This document shows positions 28,910-63,528 of a stretch of 64,000 nucleotides of DNA, piece after piece (the first letter of the stretch is position 1; every line of letters begins with the position of its first letter). The notes beneath the pieces are model-generated. The model did not search any database and was not told the DNA's origin. It worked only from the letters and a program-made list of their open reading frames with translations. Position numbers and translations under genes: made by a program. The stretch is from positions 100,688,001 to 100,752,000 of the forward strand of contig OX597820.1 in assembly GCA_951406725.2 (NCBI GenBank). The letters run 5' to 3'. The DNA comes from Octopus vulgaris. Taxonomy: Eukaryota.

Positions 28910-30328
28910 CACATATAAATGTTTTGAGCTGGTTTCAAAAGGTTAAGGGAATGTTAGATAAATTGCAGGATAAATTACAATTCTATCACTGTAATATTAT
29001 CAAGACATCTAGTGCTTATTCCAGATTGCTAAGAAAACTGACACATGTAGAATTAAGAATACTGCTTGAATACACAACTAACAATATGCAATAAATTTAA
29101 ACGCAAGGTTACTACAAAACAGTAATTCAATAGTCAACATTTCACTTGATCCTAGTTCAATAGTCAATCAATATAACGTCTACCCCCAAAAAACAATATT
29201 GGTTATAAGGGGGTTTAAAAAAAAAGGCTTCTGTATTATCCGTTACACATTTCGGAAGTATATATGAACTGAAAAGAAAAGATTTTAAATATTGCTGAAA
29301 ATAGGTAAAACCTGAAATCTGAGGAAACTACTGATAGACATATCTTGAAATTTCTAGAAGACTACCAACTGAAAGCAATAGTTGACCTGTGTCTAAACAA
29401 ATATAATGGTCAGAATAAGTTCAGTGATTGCTTCGTGAGATAAAGGAACTCACACATACATGACCAGCGTGTTATACAAAGGAGCCTGTTATTTTGACCA
29501 ATTGAATTGAAAATAGTAAAACAATAAAATCTGAAGAAACTTAGTGATGCTCTGTATCAGCAAATGATAAAACAAAGACTTCAAATAGTGGAATGATTAA
29601 GTTTTATACCACAAGGAAGATAGGAATACTAGCATTTCATGTAGAATCCTTCATCAAAGACTGATGAACTGGCTAACAGGGTTGGAGGATAAATAAATTG
29701 TAAGAGGAAACTGAAGATAGGTAACTGAAGGTAAGTTATTAATAGAGAAATGACTGCCAGTACCTAGGAAGAGTGTGTGGTGTGTGCGCAATTCGAATAT
29801 AAAGGCACCTAGCTTCTCTTCCTCGTGATGGAGACCCTTCAGTGGTAACTAATCCTTCGACACAGCCCCGACCCGAACACTAAAGATAGCAGCTGCTCAC
29901 CCAAACCTTAGCGACGTCTTCACACGTCTTGACACCGTGACGACCCACGTTGAAAAGATCGAATTGACCGTTGCCTGCACACGCCTGACAGCTTCCCCTT
30001 CCGGATGCCCCAGCTTCCAGTCAACGCACCCAGCTGCTGACGTCATCCCACAGAGTGCTCATGTAGTCCAACAATGAATAGACAACAAATACAGTAGAAG
30101 TTCACACAAGGTAGAGTTAGATCAGTTCAGGTCACCACTGCAGCATGTTGCTGTATCCACCATTTTCCAGTATCTGCTCAGGTTGTCCTGGGAGGTCCTC
30201 CAAGCAATGTCCCAGTCAATTCCCCTCTACATGAAATACTTCCTCATCTGCCATGACTATGAGGCATATGGCAGACTAACACAAACTCTCACCCCAGCTG
30301 GAGTAAGGTGGTAAAATATAAATATCTC

Positions 30329-30559
30329 CTAACTCTTTTGATACCAAACTGCCTGAGACCACCCTTAGTTTCAATGTTAAAAATTTCCAGTTTTGAAGTC
30401 ATCCAAATTAAACCTTACATCAAAAGTTCATGGTAATTTATATTCCAAACTTGAACTTAATAAATACTACTAAGTTTTACTAAATTCTTCATTATTTTCA
30501 AAATTAATTAAAACAAAATTAATGTATTTCAATGAAAATATGGGAACAAAAGGGTTGAA
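30329..30559. mobile_element. TTAA/piggyBac-type MITE; related copies at ~1370-1612, 39445-39675 and 45620-45790
   Basis: Ends resemble TTAACCCTTT...AAAGGGTTAA. Shared internal TAAATTCTTCATTATTTTCAAAATTAA. Confidence 0.6.
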
Positions 30560-30682
30560 CCATAAAAGATTCCTTAATACCAGTGCTTACTATTGTTTTC
30601 CTGTGGAAGAGATGCTAATCTATCCCAAATTAACATCCACATTAGAAAGATGAACTAAGGAGTATAGGAATCATGTCATCAC

Positions 30683-30957
30683 CACCATCATTTAATGTCC
30701 ATTGTCCAAGCTGGCATGGGTTGGACGGTTTGATCAGAGCTGGCAAGCCGGGGAGCTGCACCAGATTCCAGTCTGATTTGGCATTGTTTCTACAGCTGGA
30801 TGATCTTCCTAATGCCAATCACTTTACAGAGTGTGCTGGATGCTTTTACATGGCACTGCACAGGCACTTTTACGTAACACTGCATAGGTGCTTTTACATG
30901 GCACTGCACAGGCACTTTTACGTAACACTGCACAGGTGCTTTTACATGGCATCACAT
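30683..30957 (-). mobile_element. Family C retroposon with a ~24-bp tandem array
   Basis: Reverse complement of the family C tail plus ~5 x TGCTTTTACATGGCACTGCACAGG-like units. Confidence 0.75.
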
Positions 30958-31715
30958 GCTGTGTACTTAACAAATATATAATAAAATCCCTTTAGTGAAA
31001 TCAAACTCAATAATCTACACACTCTGCAATTTTTCTACCAGAGATTGGTTTGAAATCAAACTTTAGAGATGCTTATTTCATGCAACCAATAGCATTAGCA
31101 AAGACAAAAAATTAAAATATATATGGAATGCATGAGCTGAGAATAATCTATTGCTCTCACAAGAACCTAACAGCTGCATTAAGTGCAAGCTAGTTGAAAA
31201 TGCAACCAGATATAAGTAACAGTGGTTACTGCATGAAATATGGATCAATGATAGTTCTTAGGTGAAAGAGTTCTGTGAGACAGTAAAAGAGAATTCACAC
31301 AGTAAAGTAAATATTGATTTATCTCTATATTGTAAAACCAGATTTTAAATTAAGAAACGGTTAACCATTTTTATCTCAGTATATTACTGGTACAAGTGTT
31401 TGCAGACTCTACAGAGGTGAAAAGCATTGAAGATATCAAATTAAATGTTGTAAACCAATGAATATTTCAACTCAGTAACACAATTACCTGCCCTCTGTTC
31501 CAACCTTCCATCCATTTTCTCTGTCCACCATTCAGAAGGGTGAGGTATAAAGTCCTCAGGTGCCTTTTTCATAGAGGTCCTATCAGAAGTAACTGTGATT
31601 ACATTTTTCAGTTGGATTCCCAAGCATGACCAGCTGAGACTAAGGATATTATCCAACTATCTCATTGGTAATCCATGAATGAGATTGTTGGATTATCTGC
31701 CCTCGTGTTTAATAA

Positions 31716-31940
31716 CACTGGCAGAATCATTAGCATGCCGGGCAAAATGCTCAGTGGTATTTCGTCAGCCGTTACGTTCTGAGTTCAAATTCTGCCGAGG
31801 TCGACTTTGCTTTCATCCTTTCAGGGTTGATTAAATAAGTACCAGTTACGCACTGGGGTTGATATAATCAACTTAATCCGTTTGTCTGTCCTTGTTTGTC
31901 CTCTCTGTGTTTAGCCCCTTGTGGGTAGTAAAGAAATAGG
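31716..31940 (+). mobile_element. SINE family B
   Basis: Close match to 58117-58343. Confidence 0.85.
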
Positions 31941-32202
31941 TTATTTACACTGATACAAGCTCATGCATTTGCAGAATAGAATATTCTCAACTGACCCTAT
32001 AAAAGTACTTGTTGGGTTCTTATTTTATAGAGCTCATAAATATGAAATGAAAAGGCAATCTCTGCTGAATGTTAAGTCAGAACCAGCATCAATAATATTA
32101 ATATGCCAATTTGTTCTTTTTGTATGTACCTGTCATGGTGTCGCACTTACTTCAAAGAAGAAGTGAGTGACAAAGCAAAGAGAGAGGAGGACAGAGAGAA
32201 AG

Positions 32203-32421
32203 AGAGAATGAAAGAGGCAGTGAGTTGTGACAGCATTCGTTTCATGTTTTTAAATGTTTCAGAAAGGAAGTAAGATAGAGAGAGAAAGAGAGTGAAAGAG
32301 ACAGTGAGTGGTGACAGCCTTCATTTTGTGTTTTTAAATGTTTCAGAGAGGAAGTAAGAGAGAGAGAGAGAGCATGAAAGAGACAGTGAGTGGTGACAGC
32401 GTTTTGTGTTTTTAAATGTTT
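32203..32421. repeat. ~80-bp tandem repeat x3 (GAAAGAGACAGTGAGTGGTGACAGC..TTTTTAAATGTTT)
   Basis: Read directly from the sequence. Confidence 0.85.
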
Positions 32422-33177
32422 ATCACCTCGCAAAAAAAGTAGGTACATAGAGACATACACACATTATTAAATTAAAAGCGGGAAAAAGGAGGGACACAGA
32501 GGAAGTGAAAGAGAACAAGAGAAAGTGAGAGACACAGTAGATACATAGATCCAAAGAAAAGCTGATACATAGACACAGCAAATATCGGATGTCACTTTCA
32601 CTTTTCATTACCACACAAGGATAAAATTAACTTGCAAGTAACTGAGTACTCCACAGACATGCATATCATTAATGTAGTTCTCAGGGAGAATCAGCCTCAC
32701 GCAGAGTATGACAAGGCTGGTCCCTTAGAATTACAGCTACAACTCATTTTGGTCAGCTGAGTGGACTGGAGCAAGATAAACCTTCAAGTGGTCAGAAGAA
32801 AATGAAAAAATAGATCCTTTATAGGGGCAGGAAACTCGTTTTAGTCGCTAGGGTCACTATGGGTGTTAATCCGCTCCTAAAGTGGCATTTGTAGGTCTCA
32901 CAGATCTGGAGGCAAAGCCTCCAGATAAACTCTGATGCACAGGCTGTTATGAAACTGAGCATGAGTCGAGGGCAATTACACGTCGGAATAGCAATTATTT
33001 CGTCTTAGCTTTCACTGATTATAATAAACACATGACATGTGGAACATTTCCTTTTCAATCACTCTTCTTGAAAATGGCACTCCATCAGTTACGATGATGA
33101 GGCTCCTGTTTATCTGATCAATGACCAGCCTGCTCATAAAATTAACGTGCAAGTGGCTGAGTACTACACAGACATAC

Positions 33178-33597
33178 TCTTTTTTATTCTTTTACTTGTT
33201 TCAGTCATTTGACGACGGCCATGCTAGAGCACCGCCTTTAGTCGAGCAACTCAACCCTGGGACTTATTCTTTGTAAGCCCAGTACTTATTCTATCAGTCT
33301 CTTTTGCCGAACTGCTAAGTGACGGGGACGTAAACACACCAGCACTGGTTGTCAAGCAATGCTAGGGGGACAAACACAGACACACAAACACACACACATA
33401 CACATATATATATATATATATATACAAATATACGACAGGCTTCTTTCAGTTTCCGTCTACCAAATCCACTCACAAGGCATTGGTTGGCCCAGGGGTATAG
33501 CAAAAGACACTTGCCCAAGATGCCACGCAGTGGGACTGAACCCGGAACCATGTGGTTAGTTAGCAAGCTACTTACCACACAGCCACTCCTGCACCTA
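33178..33597 (-). mobile_element. Full-length family A SINE nested inside an older family E SINE (33070-33820)
   Basis: The host SINE sequence resumes (GTTCTCAGGGAGATTCAG) right after the inserted copy. Confidence 0.85.
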
Positions 33598-34343
33598 TGC
33601 ATACCATAAGTTAGTTCTCAGGGAGATTCAGCCTCACACAGAACGTAACAAGGCTGGTCCCTTTGAATTACAGCTGCAACTCATTTTTGCCAGCTGAGTG
33701 GACTGCAGCAAGATGAAGTAGAGTACTTCTCTCAATAACACAGCAGGCCGCAGGGAATAGTACTCATGACTTTATAATCGTGGGCCAAATACCCTTAACC
33801 ACTGAGCCTCGCACCTTCAGCCTCTTAACCATTGAGAAAAGGAATGAAGCAATAGAGACAGAGAAAAAAAAGCCTCAGTCATTTACAATCACAATTAGAC
33901 TGAAATATGATTGATCTTTTCTAGCTTCTTTACTTTTAACAATGAAGAAGAGGGAAAGACACTTGGTAATGAATAGAGGGTAAGTCTTTCAGGTGTTTAC
34001 ATTTTTATTCTGGGAGTTCTAGAACAATCGACTGTTAGTTCTCTCTTCTTTCCCCCACCACCAGTATTTATCCGCCTTCTTTTATAGTTCTTCATGTCTT
34101 TTAGTAGGTGGGGAAAGACCATGTTTTTCTCAGGTACGTTTAATGTTTTCTCTAAAACTACAAAGAAACATCCCTCTCCTTTTGTTTTTTGATTTTTTGG
34201 CATATAAAAACTAATGCAAATTTTGAACAGAGTATAGCTGTGAAAAGAGCCCAGAAAAATGGGTAATACGCCATACAAAATGGGTGTGGGAGAAAAGTTA
34301 CCAACAGGTGGCTGCACAAAATTCAACTCTATACTTTAAAGAG

Positions 34344-34416
34344 TGTCTTCTACTATAGCCTTGGGCCAACCAAAGCCTCGCGAGTGAATTTGGTAGACAG
34401 AAACTGAAGGAAGCCT

Positions 34417-34455
<39 letters not shown>

Positions 34456-34667
34456 TTTATGTGTGTTTGTGTGTGTCTGTGTTTGTCCTCCCCCACCATT
34501 GTTTGACAACCGATGTTGGTGTGTTTGCTTCCTTGTAACTTAGTTGTTCAGAAGAGACTGATAGAAGCACCAAGCTTACAGGGAATAAGTCCAGGGGCCG
34601 ATTTCTTTGACTAAAGGGTGGTACTCCAGCATGGCCACTATCAAATGACTGAAACAAGTAAAAGAAT
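34344..34667 (+). mobile_element. Family A SINE, 5'-truncated
   Basis: Matches 33178-33597 in the opposite orientation. Confidence 0.8.
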
Positions 34668-35759
34668 ACCAGAAGAATGTTCTGTACCACTAAACCAAGA
34701 AGGTTCTTTGAATATGTACGATGTATTTTAAGGATAAATAGTAATTCTGTTTACATTTGCATAACTGAGATATTTTGGTTGGATTATGTAGTTTCTATAA
34801 TCTGTAACTGTCAAAATATAGAAGCATTTCTCATGGCACTAGCATACAATTTACATATGCTTACATTTTTTATGTTTTCCGTGAACTTTTCACGGGTCCA
34901 GCTTGTGAATATAAATATTGAGATGCATATATTTCATTGCTCTCACATTTCCACCACCATCACCTCTCATAAGAAGAAAACTATTAAAGATCAGCAATTT
35001 AAACTATCATTCAGTCATTAAAAACAAAATTAAGACAAACATTGAAGTTGCAATAATCATAGGCATTTATCGTGTGGTAATCATTATAATAATTAAAAAT
35101 ATATAATTTCTTTCCCTTTCACTTAATAAACATTCAAATATTCTCAAAATAACATAAAGCACTGAAGCAATAATAATAACGATATTTAAATCAACTTCAT
35201 GCAGACACACTACATTACATCAATTAGCAAAACTATTTTCTCAGAGCGTATGCATAATTAAGATAAAAGTGAAATTTAGTCGGTTATTTTCAACATCGTT
35301 GGACTTCTCTAGTGTGTAGAAGATTTACCAAATTAACAATAAATTGGTCGTTTACATGAACTACAATAATTCCTGCCAATTTTTAATGATTGAGCCAGCA
35401 CCAAAGATAAATTGTTCACTGAAACATAATCTATCACAAAGTTTTGGCAATGTTCTTCAAAGATAGTTAGATATGATAAGGATTTGTGAAATCACAATTA
35501 GTTCTTGAAAATGATACATTTATGGTCATTTAATTATCAATTATTCACCAGGTTTAATCAGGACCAAATCAATACATCCTAATCAATTTTCAGACATGTT
35601 ATTTCAATGTTGTAAGTTCAGAAATGAAGTAATAGATCTTTTTGGAAAGAGAATTCCATCATATATATATGTCATATATAAGTGTGCACATATGTCCTGG
35701 GTTTGACTTTCAACTGCATCAATGAGTGGGGTTCTAGTTTGTGAGTTCCAGAATTTAGA

Positions 35760-36189: not shown

Positions 36190-36222
<33 letters not shown>
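35760..36222 (+). mobile_element. Family C retroposon with about four 62-bp internal units
   Basis: GGCAC(A/G)TAAA recurs at 35903, 35965 and 36027; (GAT)n tail. Confidence 0.88.
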
Positions 36223-36223
<1 letters not shown>

Positions 36224-37585
36224 TGGGACCATCTCTTAACTACTATTGTTCCCAGATCAACTCGGACCTGAAACAGTAGCATCTACCAGGGTCTCAGCTA
36301 TAAGTTAAGTAGCGTGTAAATAAAAACAAGGAGTGAGAAATTCCTAGCTGTCATTACAGTATTGTTGTAGTGAAAATGGTACACTCCTTCCCACATGACA
36401 AAGTGGTATGAACAAGCCACTATAAAGTCACACAGTCAGTCATTGTCGGAAATCAGTATTAGTAGAGTCGTTGTATGAGTTCTCAGCTGGAGTCAGTGTC
36501 AGTTATATGATACATACGAGTTTGAGTTACCATCAAAGTAGACATTTCAAAGTCATTCTCTCGGGGAGCTATCAGCAAGAGCATGATAGACAAGCCAAAG
36601 ATAATAAGATGTGGAATACTGCCACAAAATAATAGTGGTGATAATATTACAGCGCCGACAACAACATACAAGTGGACAAGGATCCACATTATAACAAGCA
36701 TCCTACTAGATGAGGGGCACTCTCATGCAAAATCCAGTTTCACATGATTACTGGTCTGTCACTAGATTCTAATCACATGGACTCAGACAATGGTACTCAT
36801 GCTGTACAAGCATCTATTACAGTAATTCACTGGCATACAGATGTCTCTTTATGGTGACCTCATCTGTCATTTGTCATTCTGTCTACTGAAAGTCCTATAG
36901 CAATGGAAGTGTGGTGACACACACAGTCCAAAGCAGCTGAAAGTACACAATTACAAAGTAGCAACATAGAATAATTATATGAGACATTATGGATGGAAAG
37001 TGAGAAATGCCACTGACAACAAGGAAGCACAAGGCAATGGTAATCATCTGTGAAAATGGAGTGGTCGCTATACACATTTTGTGAATCTGGACACCTAGCA
37101 TGTGATATTAAATGTAGCTGAAGTTATGAAGAGTCTTTTGCTTTGTTTTCTTTTTCTTCTTCAATCAGATAATATCACCTACAAAGTTAGGTATGATTAC
37201 TATTATTTCTCTTCAACATCCTAGCCATTAATTAATAATTTATTCATATTCTTGGAATTAATTCTTATCTTCATATCACACTAGGATAAGATATGCAATA
37301 TGCAACACTAAGGAGGTCAGAATAACACTGAAACATGTACTTTCCTTACTTACTGGGAAAATGATAATAACATATTATTGACTAACAACATTTTTCTTCA
37401 CCAAATATCACATATTTATTTCTAGTTAACTTTTTAATGGTCTGTTCATTAAATATACTAGCATTAACTGTTCCATTAATAAAAGCAACCTAATTCTGTT
37501 CACTACTAAGTAACACAAAAAGTACCAACAAAACAATAACAGCAACATAGATGTCAAAGTTCATTTAAAACAGATAGATAAATAC

Positions 37586-37809
37586 ATTCTGTTGTGTCTG
37601 GGGAGAGTCATTCTCTTTTAGTGCCTTATTATTTAACACTCACCGGTAAAATTTCCACTTATTTCTTATTTTTATTTTCTAAAATTTTCGTTGCGTCTTG
37701 CAACCTTTTCAATTGAAAATAAAAATAAGAAATAAGTGGAAATTTTACCGTGAGTGTGTTAAATAATAAGGCACTAAAAGAGAATGACTCTCCCCAGACA
37801 CAACAGAAT
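37586..37809. mobile_element. Fold-back element with ~94-bp inverted arms and a hammerhead-like spacer (Penelope-like derivative)
   Basis: Arms 37586-37679 and 37715-37809. The spacer on the minus strand reads TTGAAAA-GGTTGC-aagac-GCAAC-GAAA-ATTT-TA. Confidence 0.7.
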
Positions 37810-39729
37810 ATGCTTCAACACATGAACTCATATAAAGAATCTTGCAAACCAAATCCAAAAACGAAAGATAAATACATGTTATTTGGGAAATTAAGGAATT
37901 TAGAATTTGATACATTAGGCTCAAATCCTAACACTGAGATTGATGATATTCAATTTCATAATGCTAATGCTGTTTTTAGAAGAGGAGAACAAGTAGTGCC
38001 CCATAATCTTTGCAGGCCATCACAGATTGGTGAGATTGATGCAGCTGAACCATTTGCAGGCAACATTTGGATATATAGAGAAAATGTGGGCATGTAGAAA
38101 ACAGTTGTTCATGCTTGCACCAAAATGAATTCTACTAAGGGTATAAGTGATGATATTAAACCTAAAAGTATATCCTGCTTACTACCTATGTCTGCCTAAG
38201 GGCTAGGTTGAATAACTGGATTCATTGTTCCAGGTATGCTTTGCATCGGTCAAGAGGAGGACCATACTGCATACTCTGACATGGAATATGGTAAGGAATG
38301 CAATGTTGTATTCTCAATATAATCCTCTTCATTTCAATATAAGCCTGTTTTTTCTTCTTTTTCTTTTCTTTTTTTTTTTTTTTTTTTTTTTTGTAAGCCA
38401 GAGTCTGAGGCCAACCTGATTGTCACAAAAGAGACAAGCAAGTTGCTTAAGATCAGAGATTCTCAACCATCTTTTTGCTTATGGAGACCTTTGATTTCTA
38501 TTTTATTCTACTGCACAGCCATCCCTACCCTGTTACAAAAAAAATTTTCATATTTTTATAATTATATATCATTAGAAATTGTATTAAAAAAATTGCTAAA
38601 ATATTTGTATATTGTAGAAGTACAACCAATTTATTACTCATATGCTTTAACAACAAAATCTTATATGGACCCTGTAGGGTCACACAGACCCTGGCTGAGA
38701 ACCACTGCTTTAGACGTAACATAACAGCTACCGCTTCCTTCCTCTTATCTCAGGTGGTGTGCATTCCAGTAGAGTATTTGGGAGCTAACAAGGATCTTGT
38801 TCTCTCAATTTTAATGCATTTTCAATGTTCAAAAGAACAGTGCTCTTAGAGCTTGCTGGGATTATGCTCCAGTATTTTCAAGTACTTATTCAAAACAATG
38901 AGAGTGTTACAATTCAGCATCTAACCTCCACCCCCTGAACATTGGGCACTGTCTGATGAGATCGCTTCTTCCTCATCATGGCTACAGCTACCAAATATGA
39001 ATGAAAGGAAAGCATCTTTTAATATGTAATCATTTTCCACAGTGCCTGCATACTGAATCATTAACCATTGCACACAACTGTTACTCCCAAGAATATTAAC
39101 CTTCTGAAATGTTCTTCCTGTTCCTCACTTATTATCTGCAAGTGTCATGTCAGCTTACAGCTGTTTAAGCTGAAGACTAACTGGTGCAGCACCAGTAAAG
39201 GAGGGCCTGTGATAAGATTGCAGCACAGCTCATTCCTCCTGACTAAACTATAAAAAGAAATGTCATTAAAAATATTTGTGTTCATTTAAAATTTCATTCT
39301 AACTAGTTTAAGTTAAATTATATCAAAATTCTTCTTTTTTTTTTTTTCTAAACTTAAATGGCAATTCCTCTAAATTTCAAAGTATGCCAAAGTCGTGTTT
39401 GTTTTCAAGCTATCCATTGTATATTTTATTGAATTCTTCCTTTTAATCCTTTTATTACCAAATTTCTATTGAAATGCACTACTTTTGTTTTAATTAATCT
39501 TGAAACTAATGATGAAGAATTTAGTAAAATAATTTTGGCATTATTAATCTTTGGTTTGGACCATAAATCATCGTGAAGTTTCGAAGGAAGATTTTGATTT
39601 AAACCACTTTAACATATGATGTTTGTATCATAGAACCAGAGGGAATTTCAGGTGGGCAGGTATCAAAAAGGTTAATCAATCTAGAATATTACATGACATC
39701 AAAATGTAAAAACTGAATGGATTACTTAC

Positions 39730-46058: not shown

Positions 46059-46215
46059 CGGGCTTCTTTCAGTTTCCATCTACCAAATCCACTCACAAGC
46101 CTTTGGTCAGCCCGAGACTATAGTAGAAGACACTTGCCCAAGGTGCCACGCAGTGGGGCTGAACCTGGAACCATGTGATTCGTAAGCAAGATACTTACCA
46201 CACAGCCACTCCTAC
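45797..46215 (-). mobile_element. Family A SINE
   Basis: Matches 33178-33597. Confidence 0.85.
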
Positions 46216-47433
46216 TTTATTGAACATAGAGGAATGAAAATCAAAATCAGCCATTGCTAGATTTTAAATCAGAACACAAAGGTGTGACACTGACATTTTG
46301 TCCAGTGTTTCATTATTTCTAGCCTCTACAAACATTAACAGTGGAATAATGCAGCAGCATTAGGTTATATATTTGAAAAGGATGTATTTACTCAAATTAA
46401 TACAGTGTGTGCCTGGTACTTCAAAGGATTCGAAGTCAACCTTGAAACAAATGTGACTTGAATTTAGATATTTAGTCTGACCTTATCATTTCTTCCACTC
46501 CACCTCTCCAGACCAGTATGAATTATAACAAGTACCATGTTGGATATGGTTAGTATATAAAATTTGTTCAATAAAGCATGATTGTAATTCAAGAGGAGGA
46601 GCAAGTTCAAACATTTTGAGCAGAGTCTTTCTTCAAAGAATTGTAAAGTATTTCTCATTTCTTTGAGGAAGGACTCTGCTCAAAATGTTTTCTAGATGAA
46701 AGACTCTCTCTCCCTGAATTACTCAAAAGCCAGAACAGACTTCTCTACAAAGAAATGATTTTATAATTTATTTTTCAATACAGACTGTCACTAATTTCTT
46801 CAGATTAGTTCTTATGTTTACTTGTCAACTATAAGTGTTAAATTAGTTACTCTTTCAGTAAAATTGATTTCTAGTCATCTTACATATTGAAGACAACAAT
46901 GATTATAATAGAGTCCCAAATTATGCTGAAATATTGTACACAAACCATTTTAAACAATCAGGTTACTTCTGTATTTGCCTGGTATGCTAATACTATATCA
47001 TGGCATTCCAAATTTAGTTTGCAGGAGAGTTCTTAATTTTAAATTGATTAGCAACATCTTCTTGAGCAAATTATTAAAGTAGTTTTCAAGATATTTTTTC
47101 TAAGATTTGGTCATCATCTTTTTAAAATATATTACATTTACCGTCAACCAAGTAGACAGTAAACAACAAAACATGCAGCAATCTGTCTGCTTAGTCTGCT
47201 TCTGTTCACTGCAGTGTGTATGTTTTTATTCAATAATTAATATAAGTGAGGGGAAGAGAAATAAAAAGATTATTACTAGCATTCATATAACTAAGTTGGA
47301 AAATTTTGTCTCAGACAATTCATAATATATTAAACTGAGATGAGATTGCAAATTTCGTTTACCTAGAGCTCAGAGTATCAATTAAATGCAATGAATATAC
47401 ACAAAGAATATTATAATGACAGCAAAAAAAGTA

Positions 47434-47757
47434 CATTATCTACTTTATTTACATTCGACAGATATTTGTCCTCATCTTGTTTGTTGTTAACACGTTTTGG
47501 CTGATATACCCTCCAGCCTTCTTCAGATGTCTTGGGAAAATTTCAAACCTGGGTTCTCATTCCTAAGGTATTTTTCGATGTAATTATTATTATTATTATT
47601 ATTGTTGTTATTGTTCAGGTCACTGCTTTGAATCGAACTTGGAATCTTGGGGTTAGTAGCCCACGCTCTTAACCACTACGCCATGGGCATATGCATAGTG
47701 GTTAAGAGTAAATGTAAATAATGTACATAATTCCTTATCTCTTAAATATAGAACTGT
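47434..47757 (-). mobile_element. tRNA-headed, hammerhead-like fold-back retroelement with a 13-bp TSD
   Basis: TSD AGCAAAAAAAGTA (47421-47433) / AGCAACAAAAGTA (47758-47770). Minus-strand TGGCGTAGTGG A box and AGTTCGATTC B box. CTGAAGA-AGGCTG..CAGCC-aAAAC core. Central palindrome 47666-47708. Confidence 0.75.
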
Positions 47758-48038
47758 AGCAACAAAAGTATTTTGACAGCTTTATTTCCATTTTTATTTA
47801 TGCAAGAGTTTATCTTATATGAGTATTGGTTTAAGTTACATTAGTGTAACTAAATGGACAACATTCACCTCACCATCAAAGCAACCTGCCCCACAACATC
47901 TCTTTGCTATCCCTCATACTTCAACTCTTCCACATTGATTATACTGTGTAACAAATTTTTATTCTTTTTTTTTGTCTTTGGTCAGTAAGTGTTATTTCCT
48001 ATTTACTTCTAACTAGAAATCAAAGAAAATGACTACTA

Positions 48039-48353
48039 TTCCATTCAAACTTTGCTTTTGTGACCTCGCCACCAATGTTCTGAGACTGACCTATTTTCCA
48101 TTACATTTCAGACAGATTCAGAGCTGAGTTGCTGAAGCAGAAATATCACTATAGCAAATATTCTGCTCAATACCTCAGATGTGCTTGCCAGTTGCTTCGC
48201 CTTAACCGCTTGAGCATGTCCCTAAGTGGCTGACAATATATGCATCTCTGATCATGAGCAGGAGTAGAGTTGGGAGGGGTGCCTCATAGCCATGTATTGA
48301 GAGGCTTTAATTTAGTATTTGGATAAATGTAACAAAAGCAAAGTTTGAAGGAA
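48039..48353. mobile_element. MITE-like element with ~25-bp inverted ends
   Basis: TTCCATTCAAACTTTGCTTTTGTGAC ... GTAACAAAAGCAAAGTTTGAAGGAA. Confidence 0.55.
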
Positions 48354-48918
48354 ATATTAGCAATTTAGGAATTTAGGAATTAACAGTTGCTACACAACAA
48401 CAAAAATCATGTTACGCAGTATTACTCTTATCAGACAACTCTATTAGGTATGACCCTCTATAAATCTCAATCAAAATAAATAACCCCAAAATCCATTTGA
48501 TTCAGTTACTGTACAGAGAACAAATTCTCCCAGCAATTTGGTCCTTTGCTAGTAAGTTCTCAGTTAATCTGCAAAATCCCTTACTATGCTATTTCTCAAC
48601 TAAGGTATCTCTGAAAGTCGCTCTCAACAAATAAACTCACTACCTTTACTCCCCATTTTGCTTCCAAGTCCACAATGCGCACAAAAGAAATCTTTCCGAA
48701 TTTTCTTACTCAGCTCCACCTTCCACACCACCAAATGTAAATGCTTCTTTGGTCACTCCAACCCAACAAGGATACCAAGACTGAGGCATTCCAGCTGAAC
48801 ATTAAACATACCAACTTTACCTCCATCTAATTGATAAAAACAGGTTTGATGATTCAAATAGGAAAAATAGAAATCAAAACAGGAGTGTATATATATATAT
48901 ATACATACAAATATATAT

Positions 48919-49279
48919 AAGCAATAATAAATCTCTGAACGAGGTATAGACAGTAACTGCACGACAATGTGAAGTATATTTGCCATCTCAATATGGCTAA
49001 CCACTAAGGGTGGATGTTACTGTAGCTTGTAGCCCCAGGAGAACATCTCCTCCAGCTGGCTATTGACATACTTTCTGTGCCCTATCAGTATTAGCAAAGG
49101 GAGGTCATCCTTCCCTCGTCAACCTAAGTGACTGCAGTTTCTGGGTATTGACCCGTCATCAGCGCACGACAATCACTGGTTTTCTATGGAAAGGTCCCAA
49201 TGCAAATATTTATATCCTTTTTCCAGTGACTTTTCGTCACTGATCTTGAAAAAGTGTATACAAGCAATAATAAATCTCT
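48919..49279 (-). mobile_element. 343-bp hammerhead-containing unit with terminal direct redundancy (retrozyme or Penelope pLTR-like)
   Basis: AAGCAATAATAAATCTCT at 48919-48936 and 49262-49279; (TA)n tracts nearby on both sides. Confidence 0.6.
49118..49170 (-). ncRNA. Minimal type I hammerhead ribozyme motif
   Basis: CTGATGA-c-GGG-tcaata-CCC-a-GAAA-C-TGCA-G-TC. Complete catalytic core, palindromic stem III (ACTGCAGT), GUC triplet. Stem I is weak. Confidence 0.6.
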
Positions 49280-49328
49280 AAAACAAGTAAAAGATAAAGC
49301 ATAAATATATATATATATATACATATAT

Positions 49329-49797
49329 TCAAAATAAGCAACAAGGATATCCAGAGGTAGTGCTGTATGATCATTTCATGCAACTCCATTTAATTGAACA
49401 ATGCAAACATTACATCAATTTAAAATGTAGAGCAATCTTCAGCTGATAAACTAGTCTGTAAATTAAAACTAAACATTCTCCCACCACCACTAGTAAATCT
49501 GAATAACAAAAATAATCAGTGATAAGCAGTGTCTTTTTCGAAAAAATCTCAGTTACAACTGTGATGTTGTTGATAAAACATGTTCTTTGTCTTATCTATT
49601 TATCCTTTTGGTGATTTTGAATAAAAAGAAACTTATACAAATGAGTCCTTCCAATTTAACTAAATTCTATATTTTTTAGGCAACTGAAGATTGCTCTACA
49701 TCTTAAATTGATGTAATGTTTGCATTGTTCAATTAAATGGAGTTGCATGAAACAATCGTACTGCATTACCTCTGGATATCCTTGTTGCTTATTTTGA
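49329..49797. mobile_element. Fold-back element with 114-bp inverted arms, each carrying a hammerhead-like motif with a long stem II
   Basis: Arms 49329-49442 and 49684-49797, no indels. Plus strand: CTGAAGA (49684)...GAAAC-aatc-GTA (49749-49760). Confidence 0.7.
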
Positions 49798-50177
49798 TTA
49801 TAATCATGCCATTTTGAATTATATGGATAATACCATACTAAATTCTGGTGCCTTTAACTTATGTACCATATTCATCTGAATCTATATATATATATATATC
49901 TTTGTGTGTGTGTGTATGTGTGTGTGTGTGTGTTATTAATATTAAGCAGAAGTAAGAGTAACTCAAGAGCCAGGAGTTTCGTGCTAACACACAAAACTCT
50001 TGGCCCTTGAGTCACTGTTGCTTCTGTTAAATATTAGCAAAAACATTAACAAATAAGAATATTCTAAATTCAGACCCCCATCCAGGTTTGACTTTATATA
50101 ATATCCACCCCACCCACCACACAGTGGGAAAAAAAGAAAGTAAGGAAATCGATTTGAACTGTTTTTTTTCAGTCTAT

Positions 50178-51903: not shown

Positions 51904-51969
51904 TAAATTTCTCTTATGTAAAGTTAAGTTCTTCCATGTCAATATAGTTAAATGTCTGAAAGATTCCAT
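51904..51969 (-). CDS. ABCA1: ABCA1/ABCA4-like transporter, first coding exon (MESFRHLTILTWKNLTLHKRNL); the exon including 5'UTR spans 51904-52006
   Basis: ATG at 51967-51969. The ABCA N-terminal motif L-x-W-K-N-x-T-x-x-x-R is present. 66 coding nt, as I recall for human ABCA1 exon 2. Donor TTA|GTAAGT; upstream acceptor ttttgcag|A. Confidence 0.93.
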
Positions 51970-52836: not shown

Positions 52837-52880
<44 letters not shown>

Positions 52881-52941
52881 TGTACAGTGATTTATGTTGG
52901 ATGAATGAGAGAGGAGTGCTCAATACGTATTGTATAAAATA

Positions 52942-54428: not shown

Positions 54429-54489
<61 letters not shown>

Positions 54490-56879: not shown

Positions 56880-57058
56880 ATAAAGAGGAGAGGTAACAGA
56901 GGACCATACCACTGCTAAATTGTACTTTTGTATCAGCCTTCATAGTTAAGAGGGTATCTCATAATAGTTTTATTGTAGTTTATTAATGAGCCAATCACTG
57001 TAAAGGTAAATACAGTTGTGTCATTATAATCATCAAAAATTTAAAAGCTATAAATATA

Positions 57059-57276
57059 TAAGGAGGTTCTGAAAAGTTCTTGGCTTAAAGATATCATGAA
57101 AGACCTGGTTGGAGGCCCAAACTTCTGAGTTCTTTTACAGGGCTAAGAAAAACTGAAGGACCACTGCAATAAGTGTGTGAATCTGGGAGGGGAATATGTT
57201 GAAAAATATCATAATTAACCAATCCTCCTGTATTTTCTTCTATCCAAAGTCAGGAACTTTTCAGCACCCCCTTGTA
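57059..57276. mobile_element. mariner-derived MITE
   Basis: Inverted ends AGGAGGTTCTGAAAAGTTCTTGGCTT / AAAGTCAGGAACTTTTCAGCACCCCCTTG, TA-flanked. Confidence 0.75.
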
Positions 57277-58116
57277 CAAGTAGCCTCAGAAAATTCAAGT
57301 CCATAATGTTACCTTATTTGTAAACATGTCAGGTTGGTGTCAAGAAGAGCATCCAGCCATAGAAAAACCCACCGCAACAAATTCCACCCAACCTGTGCAA
57401 ATATTGTGATGATAAAGACGATAGTTTAAATCCTAGATAAACCTACACACACTTCTGTTGTTGGCAATTGTAGCAAAAACATAATTGTTGCCTTTCAACA
57501 ATATCTTGCACAAGAACTTTTGTAGCTAATTGACTCAACTATGAACTCTGTACATCTGTCACCTTGTTAATCAAAAGTTTCTTGTGTGACTACTTCAGTG
57601 CATTGTTGGCAATACAAAAAGCTCTCTATAACATACACATTGAATCCACTTTTCTTACAACAACAGTAATTTCTGACTTAGTAGTCATAAAAACTGTATG
57701 ACTCATATTTATGGTCTCTTGTAAATAAAGTTAAAAATATACTTGACTGTCATGCTTCAATGGTAAACAAGTTTTAAAAGGTAATATTTACAAAATAACA
57801 ATGACATTGCAGAAGTGTTATGTTAGCCCATTTACACAAAAACTCTTACATAACATATACTTTTTTAATAGCTGAGCAGGCTGTGTGTTGTGTTCTTGAA
57901 CAAGATACTTTATTTTACACTGCTCCAGTTCACTTGCTGTACAAGTGAGTTGCAACATCACTGGTGCCAAGCTGTATTGGCCTGTGCCTTTCCCTTGGAT
58001 ACCACAGTTGTGTGGAGAGGGGAGGCTGGCATGCATAGGCAGCTGCTGGTCTTCCAAAAACAACCTTGCCCAGACATTCTGAACATAAGCATCATACAAG
58101 CCTTTATTCTTTGTTA

Positions 58117-58343
58117 TCGAGCTGGCAGAAACGTTAGCGCGCCGGGCGAAATGCTTAGCAGTTTTTCGTCTGTCATTACGTTCTGAGTTCAAATTCCACT
58201 GAGGTCGACTTTGCCTTTCATCCTTTCGGGGTCGATAAATAAAGTACCAGTTACGCACTGGGGTCGATGTAATCGACTTAATCCCTTTGTCTATCCTTGT
58301 TTGTCCCCTCTATGTTTAACCCTTTGAGGGTATTAAAGAAATA
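58117..58343 (+). mobile_element. SINE family B, young copy
   Basis: GAGCTGGCAGAAACGTTAGC..GAGTTCAAATTCC (B box)..GGGGTCGATAAA..AAGAAATA. Confidence 0.88.
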
Positions 58344-58595
58344 TATCAACAGAGAAAAAGGAGCAGCTTCCTAAACTTTTTCTAGTCCATCCTTACCCTA
58401 CCTACTATGCTTTCACAGCACTCATCTCTATTACTAATTAAGCTACCACTGTAACAGTATCAATCACTTTAATTAAGTGCCTGGGTAAGGTAAAGAATTC
58501 CTTACCATTTCTATTATTTCAGTACAACACTTATATTTGAAATTGCTTCATCACAAAGCACCTTTTGCATTTATTTATATTTATCTATCGATCAA

Positions 58596-58631
<36 letters not shown>

Positions 58632-58935
58632 TTTCTGTCTATCTACACAAAATTTCCATGCCCACACAAATAACCCAAATAAATACCCAAACTTTCCATC
58701 ACTCTCTTACAAACACACACACACGCATACATACATACATACATACATACATACATACATACATACATACAAACATATACAAGCACCTACATATACACAT
58801 ACAAACATCTATATATTAAGACAAACTGTTATATTTGCCCATCCACTCCATGCATGCACAACCCCACTTATACTCACACAAACACACACAGACTCTCTCT
58901 TCCCCCCTTTTTTCTCTCCATCTCTCTTCCTCTCT

Positions 58936-58981
<46 letters not shown>

Positions 58982-59385
58982 CACACACACACATGCACAC
59001 ACACAAACATTTAAATTTGTATTTCTATAGTTAATCTCTGAGAATACAGGACTCTAATCAAAAGATTACTTGTAGAAAGAATGTATCTGAATCATACACA
59101 CATTTCAGCTGTTCACAATATTTTACAGTATTACTGCTTTTAAAAATCGGTTTCCTCTCACTACCATCTATTTGTATGTATGTATGGCCTCTAGAAACAA
59201 GTTATTATATCCAGAGAATATGTATTGTATGCTTGTGTTTATGTTTCAACATATATACCTTATTTTTAATTTCTAGTGTTTAATGCTATAGAGTCAATTT
59301 GTTCAACTAAAACCCACAAGGTGCCCCACTGCCCAGCATAGTTGCAGCTCAATGACCGAAACAAGTAAAGGATAAAAGATATACG

Positions 59386-59431
<46 letters not shown>

Positions 59432-59435
<4 letters not shown>

Positions 59436-59592
59436 TGCAAGCATGGCTGCATGATAAGAAGCTTGCTTCTCAACCACATGGTCCTGGGTTCAATCTCACA
59501 GTGTGGAACCTTGGACAGGTGTCTTCTACTATGGTGTCAGGCCAACCAAAGCCTTGTAAGTGGATTCAGTAGAAGGAAACTGAAAGAAGCCC

Positions 59593-59646
<54 letters not shown>

Positions 59647-59875
59647 CATGTATGTGTGTGTGTGTGTCTTTGTGTCTGCATTTGTCCCCCCACCATCACT
59701 TGTCAACTGCTGTTAGTGTGTTTACGTCCCTGTGACTTAGCAATTCAGCAAAAGAGTTCTATAGAATAAGTACTAGGATAACAAAGAATAAGTTTGAAGT
59801 TGATTTCTTTGATTAAAAACCCTTTAAGGCGATGCTCCAGCAAGGCCACAATCTGACTGAAACTAGTAAAAGAAT
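59432..59875 (+). mobile_element. Family A SINE
   Basis: Full head to tail, with an expanded internal (TA)n. Confidence 0.8.
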
Positions 59876-59937
<62 letters not shown>

Positions 59938-60379
59938 CACGAAAAATGTAAAATAAATCTTTAGTTAACACATAACTTTCACCACAATTCATAAGTGTAA
60001 AGAAAGTAGTTCTTTTTTTTTCTGTGGACAGACAAAATAAAAATCTGACTCTTTCTAGTCTTCTTAGACCTTCATCAAAGAATGTATACTCCCTATCTCT
60101 CCACAGAAACAGGAGTAGCTTTTAGTTATTTAAACTAACTAGGGCTCAATCACAATGAACAGTCTAATCTGTAATTCACTTCACAGTATTTTTGATAAAG
60201 AAAACCAGACACATCTATATATACACACACATACACACACACACACACACATATATTTCAATACAAAGCAAATAATTCTTGAGAAAAATAATTCACAAAC
60301 AAATAACTTTTAAATAAGAGGTTTGACTGTTATTTCCAGCAGGTAGACATACTTAGTATGTCCTTTGATTAATTTTAAT

Positions 60380-60411
<32 letters not shown>

Positions 60412-60425
60412 TTTATATATATATT

Positions 60426-61681
60426 CAGGGTTGGACAAAATAATGGAAACACCTTAAAATTTCAAATAAATTAGGATCGCATTTGGCAGTAATTACAGCT
60501 TGAATTCAATGAGGTATGGACTTGTACAAAAGTTGAATTGTTTCCAAAGGAATTTTTGTCCAATCTTCAGCTAAAACAGTCTCTAGTTCTTGTAGTGATG
60601 ATGGTGGAGGATACCAACTCCTTACTTGTTTTTCTAAAATAGGCCATAAATGTTCCATGATATTGAAACCTGGGGACTGTGGTGGCCAGATAAGATGTTC
60701 AACTTCACTAGAATGTTCCTCATATCGTTCAGTAACAACTTTAGCTGTGTGAATTGGTGCATTATCATCCTGAAAGATTGTGTTTCTCTCTGGAAACAGT
60801 TCCGCAACCATAGCATGAATTTGATCAGATAAAATGCTTAAATAGTCTTGACTATTAATTCTGCCATGAAGGGAAACCATTGGGCCAGTGGATTTCCAAG
60901 ATATAGCCCCACCCCAGATCATCATAGATCCTCCTCCATGTTTAACAGTTGGAAGAAGGCAGTCTGGGTCAAATACTTCTTTTGGCTTTCACAAACTTAT
61001 ACTCAGCTGGTGGTTGGAAATAAGGTAAAGGATGACTAGCCCAAGTAAATAACATTCTTCCACTGTTTTAAGGACCAATTCTGTAGATTTTTACTCCACT
61101 CTAAATGTTTTGCAACATTTGTTTTTGAAAGTCGTGGTTTTCTGATTGCATCCCTCCCATGAAATCCAGCTTTGTGCAGCTCCCAGTGAACAGTTTTTCT
61201 AGAAACTGGGTTCTCAAGGTAGTCATTAAACTCTGCAGTAATTTTGGGAGCTGTACTTTTGTGATCTTTTCTAACATTTTGCATAAGAGTCTGACGGTCC
61301 CTATCTGAAAGTTTTGGTTTTCTTCCAGAGTTTTGTTTCAATGAGGAGGTTTTTCCCTCTTTCTCAAAGGCTGTCATTACTTTTAAGACTACTTCTTGAT
61401 ACACCAAACATTTCGGGTGTTTTTGTTACACTAGCACCTGCCATATGAGCACCAACAATTTGACCTCTTTGAAAGGCCAATAGATTTGTCATTTTAATGA
61501 ATTTTAATTACCTTTTTCTGATGATATTTGAAAAGAAACAGCAATTTTAGCAAAACGTATTAAGCAACACTAATAATAAATCAAAAAACCTTAAAAATAA
61601 ACAAGCTTTGACAGTTTTATAGTAATTTCAAAATTATGATACTATGATGCTAGGTGTTTCTAATATTTTATACAACCCCTG
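60426..61681 (-). mobile_element. Full-length Tc1-family (DD34E) transposon with a pseudogenised transposase
   Basis: TIRs CAGGGTTGGACAAAATAATGGAAACACCT / AGGTGTTTCTAATATTTTATACAACCCCTG|TA. Protein fragments FQRGQIVGAH, SGRKPKLS, MIWGGAIS, FQDDNAPIH and WPPQSPGFNIMEHLW, with frameshifts. Confidence 0.93.
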
Positions 61682-61682
61682 T

Positions 61683-61728
<46 letters not shown>

Positions 61729-61835
61729 CACACACACATATATATATATATATATACATATATGTAGGTCCCGGGTTGATTCGGGGTTAACCACAGTAAA
61801 TAAGGTACTCAATACATAGCAGAGTAAAATTAATT

Positions 61836-61968
61836 TATTATATAGAAGGAGCTTCTACAGGACTAGAACTGTTTCATTCAAGAGAAATCTTCAGGAAGCT
61901 CAGGGCTTCCTGAAGATTTCTCTTGAATGAAACAGTTCTAGTCCTGTAGAAGCTCCTTCTATATAATA
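61836..61968. repeat. Perfect 64-bp inverted repeat with a 5-nt loop
   Basis: 61836-61899 is the exact reverse complement of 61905-61968. Confidence 0.97.
61905..61953 (+). ncRNA. Type I hammerhead ribozyme motif; an identical inverted copy lies on the minus strand at 61851-61899
   Basis: Stem I GCTTC/GAAGC, CTGAAGA, stem II t-TTC-tctt-GAA-t, GAAA, stem III CAG/CTG, GUA cleavage triplet. Confidence 0.72.
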
Positions 61969-61988
61969 TATATACATATATATATATG

Positions 61989-62054
<66 letters not shown>

Positions 62055-62206
62055 CACATATATATACATATATACACACATACATACATATATATGCATA
62101 TATATATGTATCTATATACATATGTATACACACACACATATATATATATACATATGTATACACACTCACATACACATACACATATATATGCATATATACA
62201 TATGTA

Positions 62207-63258
62207 TTAGGTTGTTCCGAAAATTATGGACGCTCTAATTTTGTGCTTTGAAACGCAATTTTATCATAGTACTTTAATTATATTTTAGGAGAATTTCGAC
62301 ATATTTAATAATTGATGTATGCTCTTTAATAATTTTCTACGTATTTCTGACAGAAAACATTTTTGAAGCATAAGTGCCCTTAATTATGAACATGACAAAA
62401 AAGGACCTTCACTTACTTTCCTTTTTTGTTCAAGCTTGGGCACAATGCCTCCCAAACTACTGCCAATATCAACAGAGCATGGGGAGAGGAGTCCACAAAT
62501 GATCACACAGTACAAAGGTGGTTTCAGAAATTCCATAGTGATGAGAGCCTTGAAGATGAAGAAGGTAGAGGGCGGTCCTCTGGTCTTGACAATGAACAAC
62601 TGAAAGCAACTGTTGAACAAAACCCACGTCAAAGTGACAGGGAAATGTCTCAGGCACTTGGTGTCAGTATTGCAATAGTCTCACGCAATCTGCAGAAGGT
62701 GAAAAAGCTTGATAAATGGGTACTGCATGAGCTCAATGAAAATCAAAATGTTTGGCATTTTGAAGTGTGCTCAATGCTCTTTCTGCGAAGCATCAATTAT
62801 CCTTTTCTTGACCGAATAGTCACTTGTGATGAAAAGTGGGTCCTTTATGATAACCGTAAATGATCAGGTCAATGACTTGATTGTGAGGAGTCCCCCAAAC
62901 ATTTCGCAAATCCAGAGTTGCATCAGCAAAAGATTATGGTGACTATCTGGTGGTCTGGTGACTAATTGGTGTTGTCCATTACAGCTTTCTGGAAGCCAAT
63001 CAGAGCATTACAGCAGAGGTTTACAGCAATCAACTCGCTGAAATGCATGCTCAATTGCAAAAAATGAGACCTGCATTGGTGAATCGGCATGGCCCAATTC
63101 TGCTCCACAATAACGCAAAGACACATATTGCAAAAATGATGCTGCAGAAACTCACAGACTTGAGATATAAGACTTTAACCATATCCTCCTGATTTTTCAC
63201 CCACTGACTACCATTTTTTAAAGCATTTAAACATGTTTTTAAATGATAAAACTTTCAG
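62207..63258 (+). mobile_element. mariner (DD34D) transposon, 3'-truncated, transposase pseudogene
   Basis: TA|TTAGGTTG TIR. Motifs FKLGHNA..TANIN.AWG, WVLHEL, IVTCDEKWVLYDN and PYPPDFSPTDYHFF, with stops and frameshifts. Confidence 0.92.
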
Positions 63259-63478
63259 TGTATATATATAAATATATATATATATATTAAACTCTGTTGG
63301 ACTTTTGGATTTTACTCAAAGGATATTGGAATACTACACATATATACCATTATGCCTATAAAACAGATTTATGAACTCAATAACCATACATATCTTACAT
63401 CTATTTTCTTTCCTCCACCTCACTCTCTATTTGTATCACATCGAAAATAACTATGACTTAATTTTTCCTCTCACACCA

Positions 63479-63528
63479 TCTCTGATGAAGGGATATTATT
63501 AATTAATATCCTAGAAACAGCTGTAAGA
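63479..63528 (+). ncRNA. Minimal type I hammerhead motif within a Penelope-pLTR-like segment (~63290-63596)
   Basis: TCT-CTGATGA-a-GGGATATTA-ttaat-TAATATCCT-a-GAAA-C-AGCT-G-TA-AGA: 9-bp stem II, palindromic stem III, 3-bp stem I. Confidence 0.68.

What the first reader, a model, noticed from the sequence alone, without database searches (positions are those of the whole stretch)
29627..63528. About nine unrelated short elements carrying hammerhead-ribozyme motifs, mostly sense to the ABCA gene
Seen: CUGANGA-stem II-GAAA-short quasi-palindromic stem III-UH motifs with intact cores at 49118-49170(-), 61851-61899(-)/61905-61953(+) and 63479-63528(+). Degenerate versions lie at 29627-29660(-), 37680-37714(-), 46609-46690, 47457-47530(-), 49360-49445(-)/49681-49765(+) and 60041-60083(-). 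Their flanks show no evident similarity to each other, none encodes RT or GIY-YIG, and several are fold-backs or sit in (TA)n. Known: minimal type I hammerheads with palindromic stem III mark Penelope-like elements and animal non-LTR retrozymes, and cleave best as dimers. Inference: several non-autonomous ribozyme-bearing retroelement families have radiated in this genome, and copies on the minus strand could cut or circularise intronic RNA.
Basis: partly seen in the sequence, partly recalled or inferred. Interest (0 to 1): 0.8.

Follow-up and report, generated by a model that had tools for sequence, protein, structure and literature searches.

The report
Decayed Penelope-type hammerhead retroelement ends
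Six of the nine listed spots in this octopus-like genome hold real hammerhead-ribozyme motifs, likely left by Penelope-type jumping genes and their non-coding parasites, a known arrangement, and the copies inside the ABCA gene are broken or predicted to fold shut, so they likely do not cut its RNA.

Summary
Partly confirmed; a known kind. Six of nine spots are real hammerhead-bearing insertions (37.7, 47.5, 49.1, 49.4/49.7, 61.9, 63.5 kb). 60.0 kb is a likely decayed one. 29.6 and 46.6 kb are unconfirmed. A full descriptor finds 4 motifs against 0.21 in shuffles. Rfam finds none.

Public runs show multi-copy families. Relatives of 47.5 kb restore the broken core. 49.1 kb is one 343-nt unit of a head-to-tail repeat with a 6-bp helix I, and this copy has lost that helix's 3' strand. 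Three of the six are head-to-head fold-backs with a tail on one arm, two of them in (TA)n and one with a 12-nt target duplication: the published Penelope footprint. No RT or GIY-YIG lies in the window.

This scan noted such elements many times on other pieces of this genome.

The parts
37588..37865 (.). Fold-back insertion: arms 37586-37679 and 37715-37809, 56-nt tail on the right arm (37810-37865), flanked by a 12-nt direct repeat (37576-37587, 37866-37877), a likely target-site duplication
   Evidence: such a repeat at 16 of 3000 random places
37682..37712 (-). Minimal hammerhead with U3-A8 core, one extra base before a 5-bp helix II (G10.1-C11.1) and 4-nt palindrome; it forms the loop of the fold-back
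   Evidence: copy number not tested
47435..47731 (-). tRNA-headed element of a very abundant family, with a short inverted arm at its 5' end (47696-47708) that runs on into a second copy of the 3' end (from 47711, + strand); right boundary not fixed
47620..47688 (-). tRNA-like head with A-box-like (47683-47673) and B-box-like (47638-47630) words
   Evidence: read from sequence, box consensus recalled; ARAGORN calls no tRNA
47488..47526 (-). Decayed minimal hammerhead: G12 changed to A and 3 nt lost at the cleavage site; relatives have the intact core and a 5-bp helix I
   Evidence: loose end at 47493 in run X1, 249 contigs; change at 47527 in 4 of 4 runs
48919..49279 (-). One unit (period 343 nt, 18-nt terminal redundancy) of a head-to-tail non-coding repeat of retrozyme type, next to (TA)n
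49118..49175 (-). Type I hammerhead (C3 at 49162) lacking 10 nt that hold the 3' strand of helix I; relatives have a 6-bp helix I
49324..49881 (.). Head-to-head insertion between two (TA)n runs: arms 49324-49445(-) and 49681-49802(+), about 80-nt tail on the right arm; each arm has an intact core, long helix II, 6-nt palindrome and a damaged helix I, with different lesions in the two arms
60041..60083 (-). Likely decayed hammerhead of the same build as 63482 (U3.G8, 5-bp helix II, no palindrome)
   Evidence: loose descriptor only; copy number not tested
61766..61967 (.). Head-to-head insertion in (TA)n: 139-nt palindrome 61833-61971 at 96% with a complete type I hammerhead in each arm (C3 at 61894 - and 61910 +; hairpin helix III), about 67-nt tail on the left arm
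   Evidence: copy number not tested
63290..63595 (+). Single insertion between (TA)n runs, next to a mariner remnant, with a complete type I hammerhead (C3 63482, H17 63525; 9-bp helix II, 8-nt palindrome, 3-bp helix I)
   Evidence: copy number not tested
46609..46690 (.). 82-nt imperfect palindrome with core-like words but no GAAA; possible very old relic, not confirmed
29627..29660 (-). Core-like words without helices; not confirmed
51904..51969 (-). First coding exon (66 nt) of the ABCA-like host gene; next exons 39826-39730 (97 nt) and 25605-25464 (142 nt) splice in frame
   Evidence: the name ABCA rests on recalled motifs, no database hit named it

Best explanation
Six of the nine spots are short insertions that carry hammerhead motifs, likely the 3' ends of several Penelope-like retroelement families plus at least one retrozyme-type tandem repeat, and the copies in this window are predicted to be inert. 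Inferred mechanism: a Penelope reverse transcriptase and GIY-YIG endonuclease made elsewhere in the genome nick AT-rich DNA, often (TA)n, and copy the element RNA from its 3' end. Copying stops early and often leaves a second, inverted arm. Because the hammerhead lies within about 100 nt of the 3' end, it is the part that survives, which gives many short, unrelated, non-coding, fold-back pieces. In the parent elements the ribozyme would process tandem RNA as a dimer through the palindromic helix III (from the literature, not tested). After insertion the copies decay: two have lost needed bases (shown against relatives), two are paired off by their own inverted arm (predicted), two are lone dimer-type motifs.
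For: SHOWN. Motif counts far above shuffles. Multi-copy families for 47.5, 49.1 and 49.4/49.7 kb in 4 of 4 runs, with many opposite-strand joints. Relatives restore the hammerhead at 47.5 kb and at 49.1 kb, where a loose end behind 49131 is listed for 4 of 4 runs and two subfamilies differ by a G-C / A-U change on both sides of helix I. Head-to-tail continuation behind 49279 in runs X5 (20 contigs) and X13 (3), and a joint 49277 to 48940 in X5. Inverted arm plus one-sided tail at 37.7, 49.5 and 61.9 kb; (TA)n at 49.1, 49.5, 61.9 and 63.5 kb; 12-nt flanking repeat at 37.7 kb. OTHER ANIMALS. Of 126 motifs with the 47.5-kb build in 119 metagenome loci, 99 lie at most 119 nt behind a hit to RT/GIY-YIG proteins on the same strand and 1 before one; 34 of 119 loci have an inverted copy of the 3' end. 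PREDICTED. Forcing helix I in the 61.9-kb insert costs 76-79 kcal/mol on either strand; in the 49.5-kb insert 11 of 11 core bases pair with the other arm. LITERATURE. Same footprint in PMC8557442 and PMC3846280; lone minimal motifs showed no cleavage in PMC4209133.
Against: No coding Penelope sequence is linked to any of these copies: none in the window, and no genome was held to look further. The metagenome test used one motif build, is dominated by one family, and its protein queries came from the same loci. Rfam reports no hammerhead. No hammerhead fold beats shuffled energy except 37.7 kb. Family status of 37.7, 60.0, 61.9 and 63.5 kb was not tested. My advance prediction of about 6 missing bases 5' of the 49.1-kb core was wrong; the loss is 10 nt on the 3' side. 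Family readings come from loose-end consensus lines with agreement 0.65-0.98, not from whole aligned copies. Inertness is a folding prediction only.
Confidence: 0.8

Rival explanations
1. The sense-strand copies are active ribozymes that cut or circularise ABCA intron RNA.
For: Four confirmed motifs lie on the gene's strand inside coding introns 1 and 2 (37.7, 47.5, 49.1, 49.4 kb). The isolated minus arm at 61.9 kb folds into helices I-III on its own, helix I probability about 0.7, and could matter if an upstream 5' UTR intron covers it.
Against: 47.5 kb lacks GAAA and 49.1 kb lacks a helix I strand. In both pairs the antisense arm is transcribed first and pairs with the core. 37.7 kb has a 4-nt palindrome with no stable duplex (+2.2 kcal/mol) and no partner. 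Strand bias p = 0.22. A circle needs two matching motifs in tandem; none exist.
Confidence: 0.05
2. All the real elements are non-autonomous families in their own right (retrozymes, a tRNA-headed SINE-like element), not cut-off ends of coding Penelope elements.
For: 49.1 kb is a tandem non-coding unit. 47.5 kb has a tRNA-like head and no ORF. No PLE protein trace upstream of any motif, including 190 nt at 63.3 kb and 235 nt at 49.5 kb.
Against: Arms are too short to reach an ORF in most cases. In other animals 54 of 66 motifs with 400 nt or more upstream lead into PLE protein. Only Penelope/Poseidon-like queries were used. An earlier scan note (e1-9599414, unchecked) reads a tRNA-headed element of this genome as the end of a coding PLE.
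Confidence: 0.2
3. The weak spots (29.6, 46.6, 60.0 kb) are chance matches or unrelated hairpins, so 'about nine' is six.
For: Shuffles give 5.7 loose and 19 core-only matches per window. 46.6 kb is single-copy at 80%. 29.6 kb has no helix II.
Against: 60.0 kb repeats the build of 63.5 kb. The two core lesions at 46.6 kb are the changes expected from CpG decay of a minimal motif, and it is a head-to-head fold-back like the others (inference).
Confidence: 0.45
4. The ribozyme fold or its cut site sets where the inverted arm begins, so the junctions are a footprint of hammerhead action during insertion.
For: At 37.7 kb the right arm starts at the first base after the cut site; at 46.6, 49.5 and 61.9 kb an arm starts within about 11 nt of the core. 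In other animals arm starts avoid the core-to-cut span (3 of 23, p = 0.013).
Against: All tests were made after seeing the data. No excess of starts 0-11 nt before the core (4 of 23, p = 0.36); 5' ends spread widely; of six starts near the cut site only about one is exact, the rest scatter by up to 5 nt. Short arms must end near the motif because it lies near the 3' end.
Confidence: 0.1

Closest known systems
Minimal hammerheads of metazoan Penelope-like elements (Cervera and de la Pena 2014, PMC4209133; read parts 1-2 of 4)
   Same: Type I order, extra base between positions 9 and 10.1, G10.1-C11.1, palindromic 15.2-16.2, U3-A8 variant, mostly lone motifs, pairs on opposite strands 100-700 bp apart, many families per genome. 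37.7 kb and the 47.5-kb family fit closely.
   Different: 49.1, 49.5, 60.0, 61.9 and 63.5 kb have an extra base on both sides of helix II (C.A, U.U or A.A) and a 6-nt palindrome or a hairpin; no link to a PLE ORF shown here.
Insertion structure of EN+ Penelope-like elements (PMC8557442 and PMC3846280; passages read)
   Same: 5' truncation, adjacent inverted copy in head-to-head orientation, tail on one arm, (TA)n or AT-rich targets, target duplication of about 10 bp.
   Different: Tails here are about 45-80 nt against 30-40 nt described; no RT-EN ORF present.
Animal non-LTR retrozymes (PMC7229834, passages and section 14; bioRxiv 10.64898/2026.07.22.740005, parts 1-3 of 5)
   Same: The 49.1-kb family: about 350-nt non-coding head-to-tail unit with a 6-bp helix I type I hammerhead, like the 350-390-bp mussel units; monomers are common; PLE origin already proposed.
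   Different: This copy is a damaged monomer; no circular RNA shown; a cephalopod example was not found in my searches.

Membership tests
Type I hammerhead ribozyme | Core CUGANGA (or U3-A8), GAAA, UH in type I order | tested here: met
   Met at 37.7, 49.1, 49.4, 49.7, 61.9 (both arms), 63.5 kb; not met at 47.5 (met in relatives), 46.6, 60.0, 29.6 kb
Type I hammerhead ribozyme | Helices I and II, and helix III or a palindrome for dimers | tested here: inconclusive
   All present at 37.7, 61.9, 63.5 kb; helix I absent at 49.1 kb and damaged at 49.4/49.7 kb
Type I hammerhead ribozyme | Covariation among copies | tested here: inconclusive
   One two-sided change in helix I of the 49.1-kb family, read from variant rows and loose ends; no alignment of whole copies
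Type I hammerhead ribozyme | Match to an Rfam hammerhead model | tested here: not met
Type I hammerhead ribozyme | Self-cleavage | not testable with these tools
   needs an assay
Penelope minimal hammerhead (PMC4209133) | Extra base at 9/10.1, G10.1-C11.1, palindromic 15.2-16.2 | tested here: met
   37.7 kb and the 47.5-kb family; the other elements have a different helix II base
EN+ Penelope-like element | ORF with RT and GIY-YIG endonuclease | tested here: not met
   None in the window; so these are at most truncated ends or passengers; rest of genome not held
EN+ Penelope-like element | Inverted 5'-truncated arm with a tail on one arm | tested here: met
   37.7, 49.5, 61.9 kb; opposite-strand joints in the 47.5 and 49.1-kb families; not seen at 63.5 kb
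EN+ Penelope-like element | Microsatellite target or short target duplication | tested here: met
   (TA)n at 49.1, 49.5, 61.9, 63.5 kb; 12-nt repeat at 37.7 kb; none found at 47.5, 46.6, 60.0 kb
Animal non-LTR retrozyme | Non-coding head-to-tail unit of a few hundred nt with a type I hammerhead | tested here: met
   49.1-kb family only; tandem form listed for 2 of 4 runs
Animal non-LTR retrozyme | Two or more complete hammerheads in tandem in the copy | tested here: not met
   window copy is 1.05 units
Animal non-LTR retrozyme | Expressed circular RNA | not testable with these tools
   no run on record as RNA; contigs cannot show it

The most novel reading that the evidence does not exclude
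The inverted arms of Penelope-type insertions begin at the hammerhead's cut site or at its helix I, because reverse transcriptase runs off the cleaved RNA or the new cDNA snaps back on helix I. The 37.7-kb fold-back, with a minimal ribozyme as its loop and an arm starting at the first base after the cut, would then be a genomic record of what these poorly cleaving ribozymes do during insertion.
Probability: 0.1. Interest if true: 0.6.

Novelty: new member of a known kind. Interest (0 to 1): 0.2.

Why it matters
Modest. It extends Penelope-type minimal hammerheads and a retrozyme-type repeat to an octopus-like genome, where my searches found no paper on them (the 2026 Octopus vulgaris repeat annotation has 0 occurrences of hammerhead, ribozyme or retrozyme in its main text). 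At six insertions in 64 kb they may make up part of the unclassified cephalopod repeats, and the motif could help classify them. It gives no sign of ribozyme control of the ABCA gene. The role of the ribozyme in Penelope elements is still open (PMC8557442), and junction mapping in such families could test it.

Tried and rejected
Whole genome: not held, so no genome-wide consensus or copy counts. Rfam: no hammerhead hit in four scans; the mir-3199 match at 61.9 kb only reflects the palindrome. Naming the host gene by search failed; exons were found with recalled motifs. No RNA holder listed; family pieces in runs guessed to be RNA say nothing on expression. Sequence look-ups of five elements in earlier scan notes found nothing, nor did the near and word look-ups, so I cannot equate these families with earlier ones. 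A 63.5-kb-type pattern found 0 matches in viral contigs. The window had no BLAST hit in the 119 metagenome loci, so these are analogues, not relatives. A possible endonuclease tail read by eye at 63295-63375 got no support and is dropped. Predicted 6-nt loss 5' of the 49.1-kb core: wrong. Hot spot of arm starts just before the core: not supported in other animals. Lunse et al. (dimer cleavage) was not held and is known to me only through review passages. Summed contig depths were not used as copy numbers. Supplements were not read; those of the retrozyme preprint and of PMC4209133 and PMC8557442 may list cephalopod motifs and bear on the claim that none is in print.


Full report
SETTING. The window is 34.6% GC animal DNA rich in (TA)n and short repeats. 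Earlier scan notes call the genome octopus; I did not test the species. A minus-strand gene has in-frame exons at 51969-51904, 39826-39730 and 25605-25464 (66, 97, 142 nt) and further exon-like frames below 10 kb. Its likeness to ABCA1 is from my recall; searches did not name it. So the 29.6 and 37.7-kb spots lie in coding intron 2, the 46.6-49.8-kb spots in coding intron 1, and 60.0, 61.9 and 63.5 kb upstream of the start codon, inside or outside the transcript (unknown).

IS IT THERE. The quoted motifs are at the quoted places. A strict type I descriptor gives 3 loci against 0.1 in 60 shuffles; with one mismatch 5 against 1.4, within the shuffle range. On 300 shuffles a full-fold descriptor gives 4 against 0.21, one without helix I gives 7 against 0.17, a loose one 15 against 5.7 and core words alone 34 against 19.1. 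The descriptors were post hoc and pairs count twice, but the excess for well-formed motifs is large. Core words alone are common by chance, so degenerate spots need other evidence. Rfam reports no hammerhead.

FAMILY EVIDENCE. Contigs of four public runs laid on 46070-49895 cover 46187-47469 with one long contig each, which puts the 46.6-kb palindrome in single-copy DNA at 80% likeness, while 47.35-47.86 kb and 48.9-49.9 kb draw very many contigs. At 47.5 kb the loose end behind 47493 (run X1, 249 contigs, agreement 0.77) and a change at 47527 in 4 of 4 runs show that relatives have GAAA, a CG palindrome and a 5-bp helix I; the window copy has G12 to A and a 3-nt loss. At 49.1 kb I predicted a 6-nt loss 5' of the core and tandem joints. 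The first was wrong: relatives carry 10 more bases 3' of the cut site, listed for 4 of 4 runs, giving a 6-bp helix I with one two-sided change between subfamilies. The second was right: contigs read on from 49279 into the sequence at 48937 (X5, 20 contigs; X13, 3; not listed for X2 and X19), a head-to-tail unit of 343 nt here and about 353 nt with the loss counted. That is a retrozyme-type unit. At 49.4/49.7 kb the two arms carry different lesions in the palindrome and in helix I that complement each other, pointing to a complete ancestor (inference).

GEOMETRY. 37.7, 49.5 and 61.9 kb are head-to-head insertions with a 56-80-nt tail on one arm; 49.1, 49.5, 61.9 and 63.5 kb touch (TA)n; 37.7 kb has a 12-nt flanking repeat, seen at 16 of 3000 random places. 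PMC8557442 and PMC3846280 (passages) describe this footprint for endonuclease-bearing Penelope-like elements. 99 of 126 lie at most 119 nt behind a hit to proteins of which 7 of 11 tested matched GIY-YIG or RVT_1 at E up to 0.01 (one above the curated cut-off), and 1 lies before such a hit; 34 of 119 loci have an inverted 3' end. One family dominates this set and the queries came from it. The window itself holds no such protein trace.

MECHANISM. Shown: motifs, families for three elements, lesions, geometry. Inferred: mobilisation by Penelope proteins in trans or as truncated ends, with the hammerhead surviving because it lies near the 3' end. From the literature: these motifs work as dimers and cleave weakly; a lone minimal motif showed no cleavage (PMC4209133); 8 of 9 Xenopus dimers did not cleave (preprint). 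The 8-nt palindromes at 63.5 and 49.1 kb form self-duplexes of -11.1 kcal/mol, that at 37.7 kb none.

THE CUTTING IDEA. Strand bias is 5 of 6, p = 0.22. Inside the gene, 47.5 and 49.1 kb are broken, the 49.4-kb core pairs with the opposite arm at 11 of 11 positions in the predicted fold, and 37.7 kb is a lone dimer-type motif. At 61.9 kb the hairpin beats the ribozyme fold by 76-79 kcal/mol on either strand, although the isolated minus arm folds correctly. 63.5 kb is on the other strand. No tandem pair exists to make a circle. These are predictions, not assays.

NOVELTY. Minimal hammerheads scattered as lone motifs and opposite-strand pairs, the U3-A8 variant, and retrozymes as Penelope derivatives are all published. 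I found no paper on octopus hammerheads (5 papers, 4 listed, titles seen, one read in passages), but supplements were not read. This scan has 778 notes in this genome that fit the look-up; the 8 shown describe the same kinds of element; they are unchecked leads, not support. The one bolder reading, that arm junctions mark the ribozyme's cut site or helix I, has weak and mixed support and gets 0.1. Verdict: new members of a known kind, interest 0.2.

Noticed in passing
   Followed up: partly
window 7427-7669 and 8479-8723: 245-nt inverted repeat at 96.7% identity, 810 nt apart, inside the ABCA-like gene; no hammerhead or simple-repeat ends seen. It would form a long double-stranded RNA in the transcript.
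   Followed up: partly
window 20515-21999 (+): PIF1 helicase remnant, likely a Helitron piece.
   Followed up: partly
window 60509-61507 (-) and 62396-63189 (+): Broken Tc1 and mariner transposase genes flanking the 61.9-kb insertion.
   Followed up: partly
window 5271-6325: 76 copies of a 14-nt minisatellite, 92% matches.
   Followed up: no
window 29760-30000: G+C-richer stretch just upstream of the unconfirmed 29.6-kb motif that looks like part of another repeat; no Pfam hit.
   Followed up: no
window 46609-46690, 47498, 49367-49374, 49753-49758: Lesions in the decayed motifs fall on CpG sites (C11.1-G12 and the palindrome centre), which may be the usual way these motifs die (inference).
   Followed up: partly
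L004, L005, L021, L046, L062, L063: Short inverted arms in other animals start within about 5-7 nt of the hammerhead cut site in these six loci, but not at one fixed base.
   Followed up: partly
L074:1503-3161 (-): 553-residue RT plus GIY-YIG frame ending 82 nt before a minimal hammerhead.
   Followed up: partly
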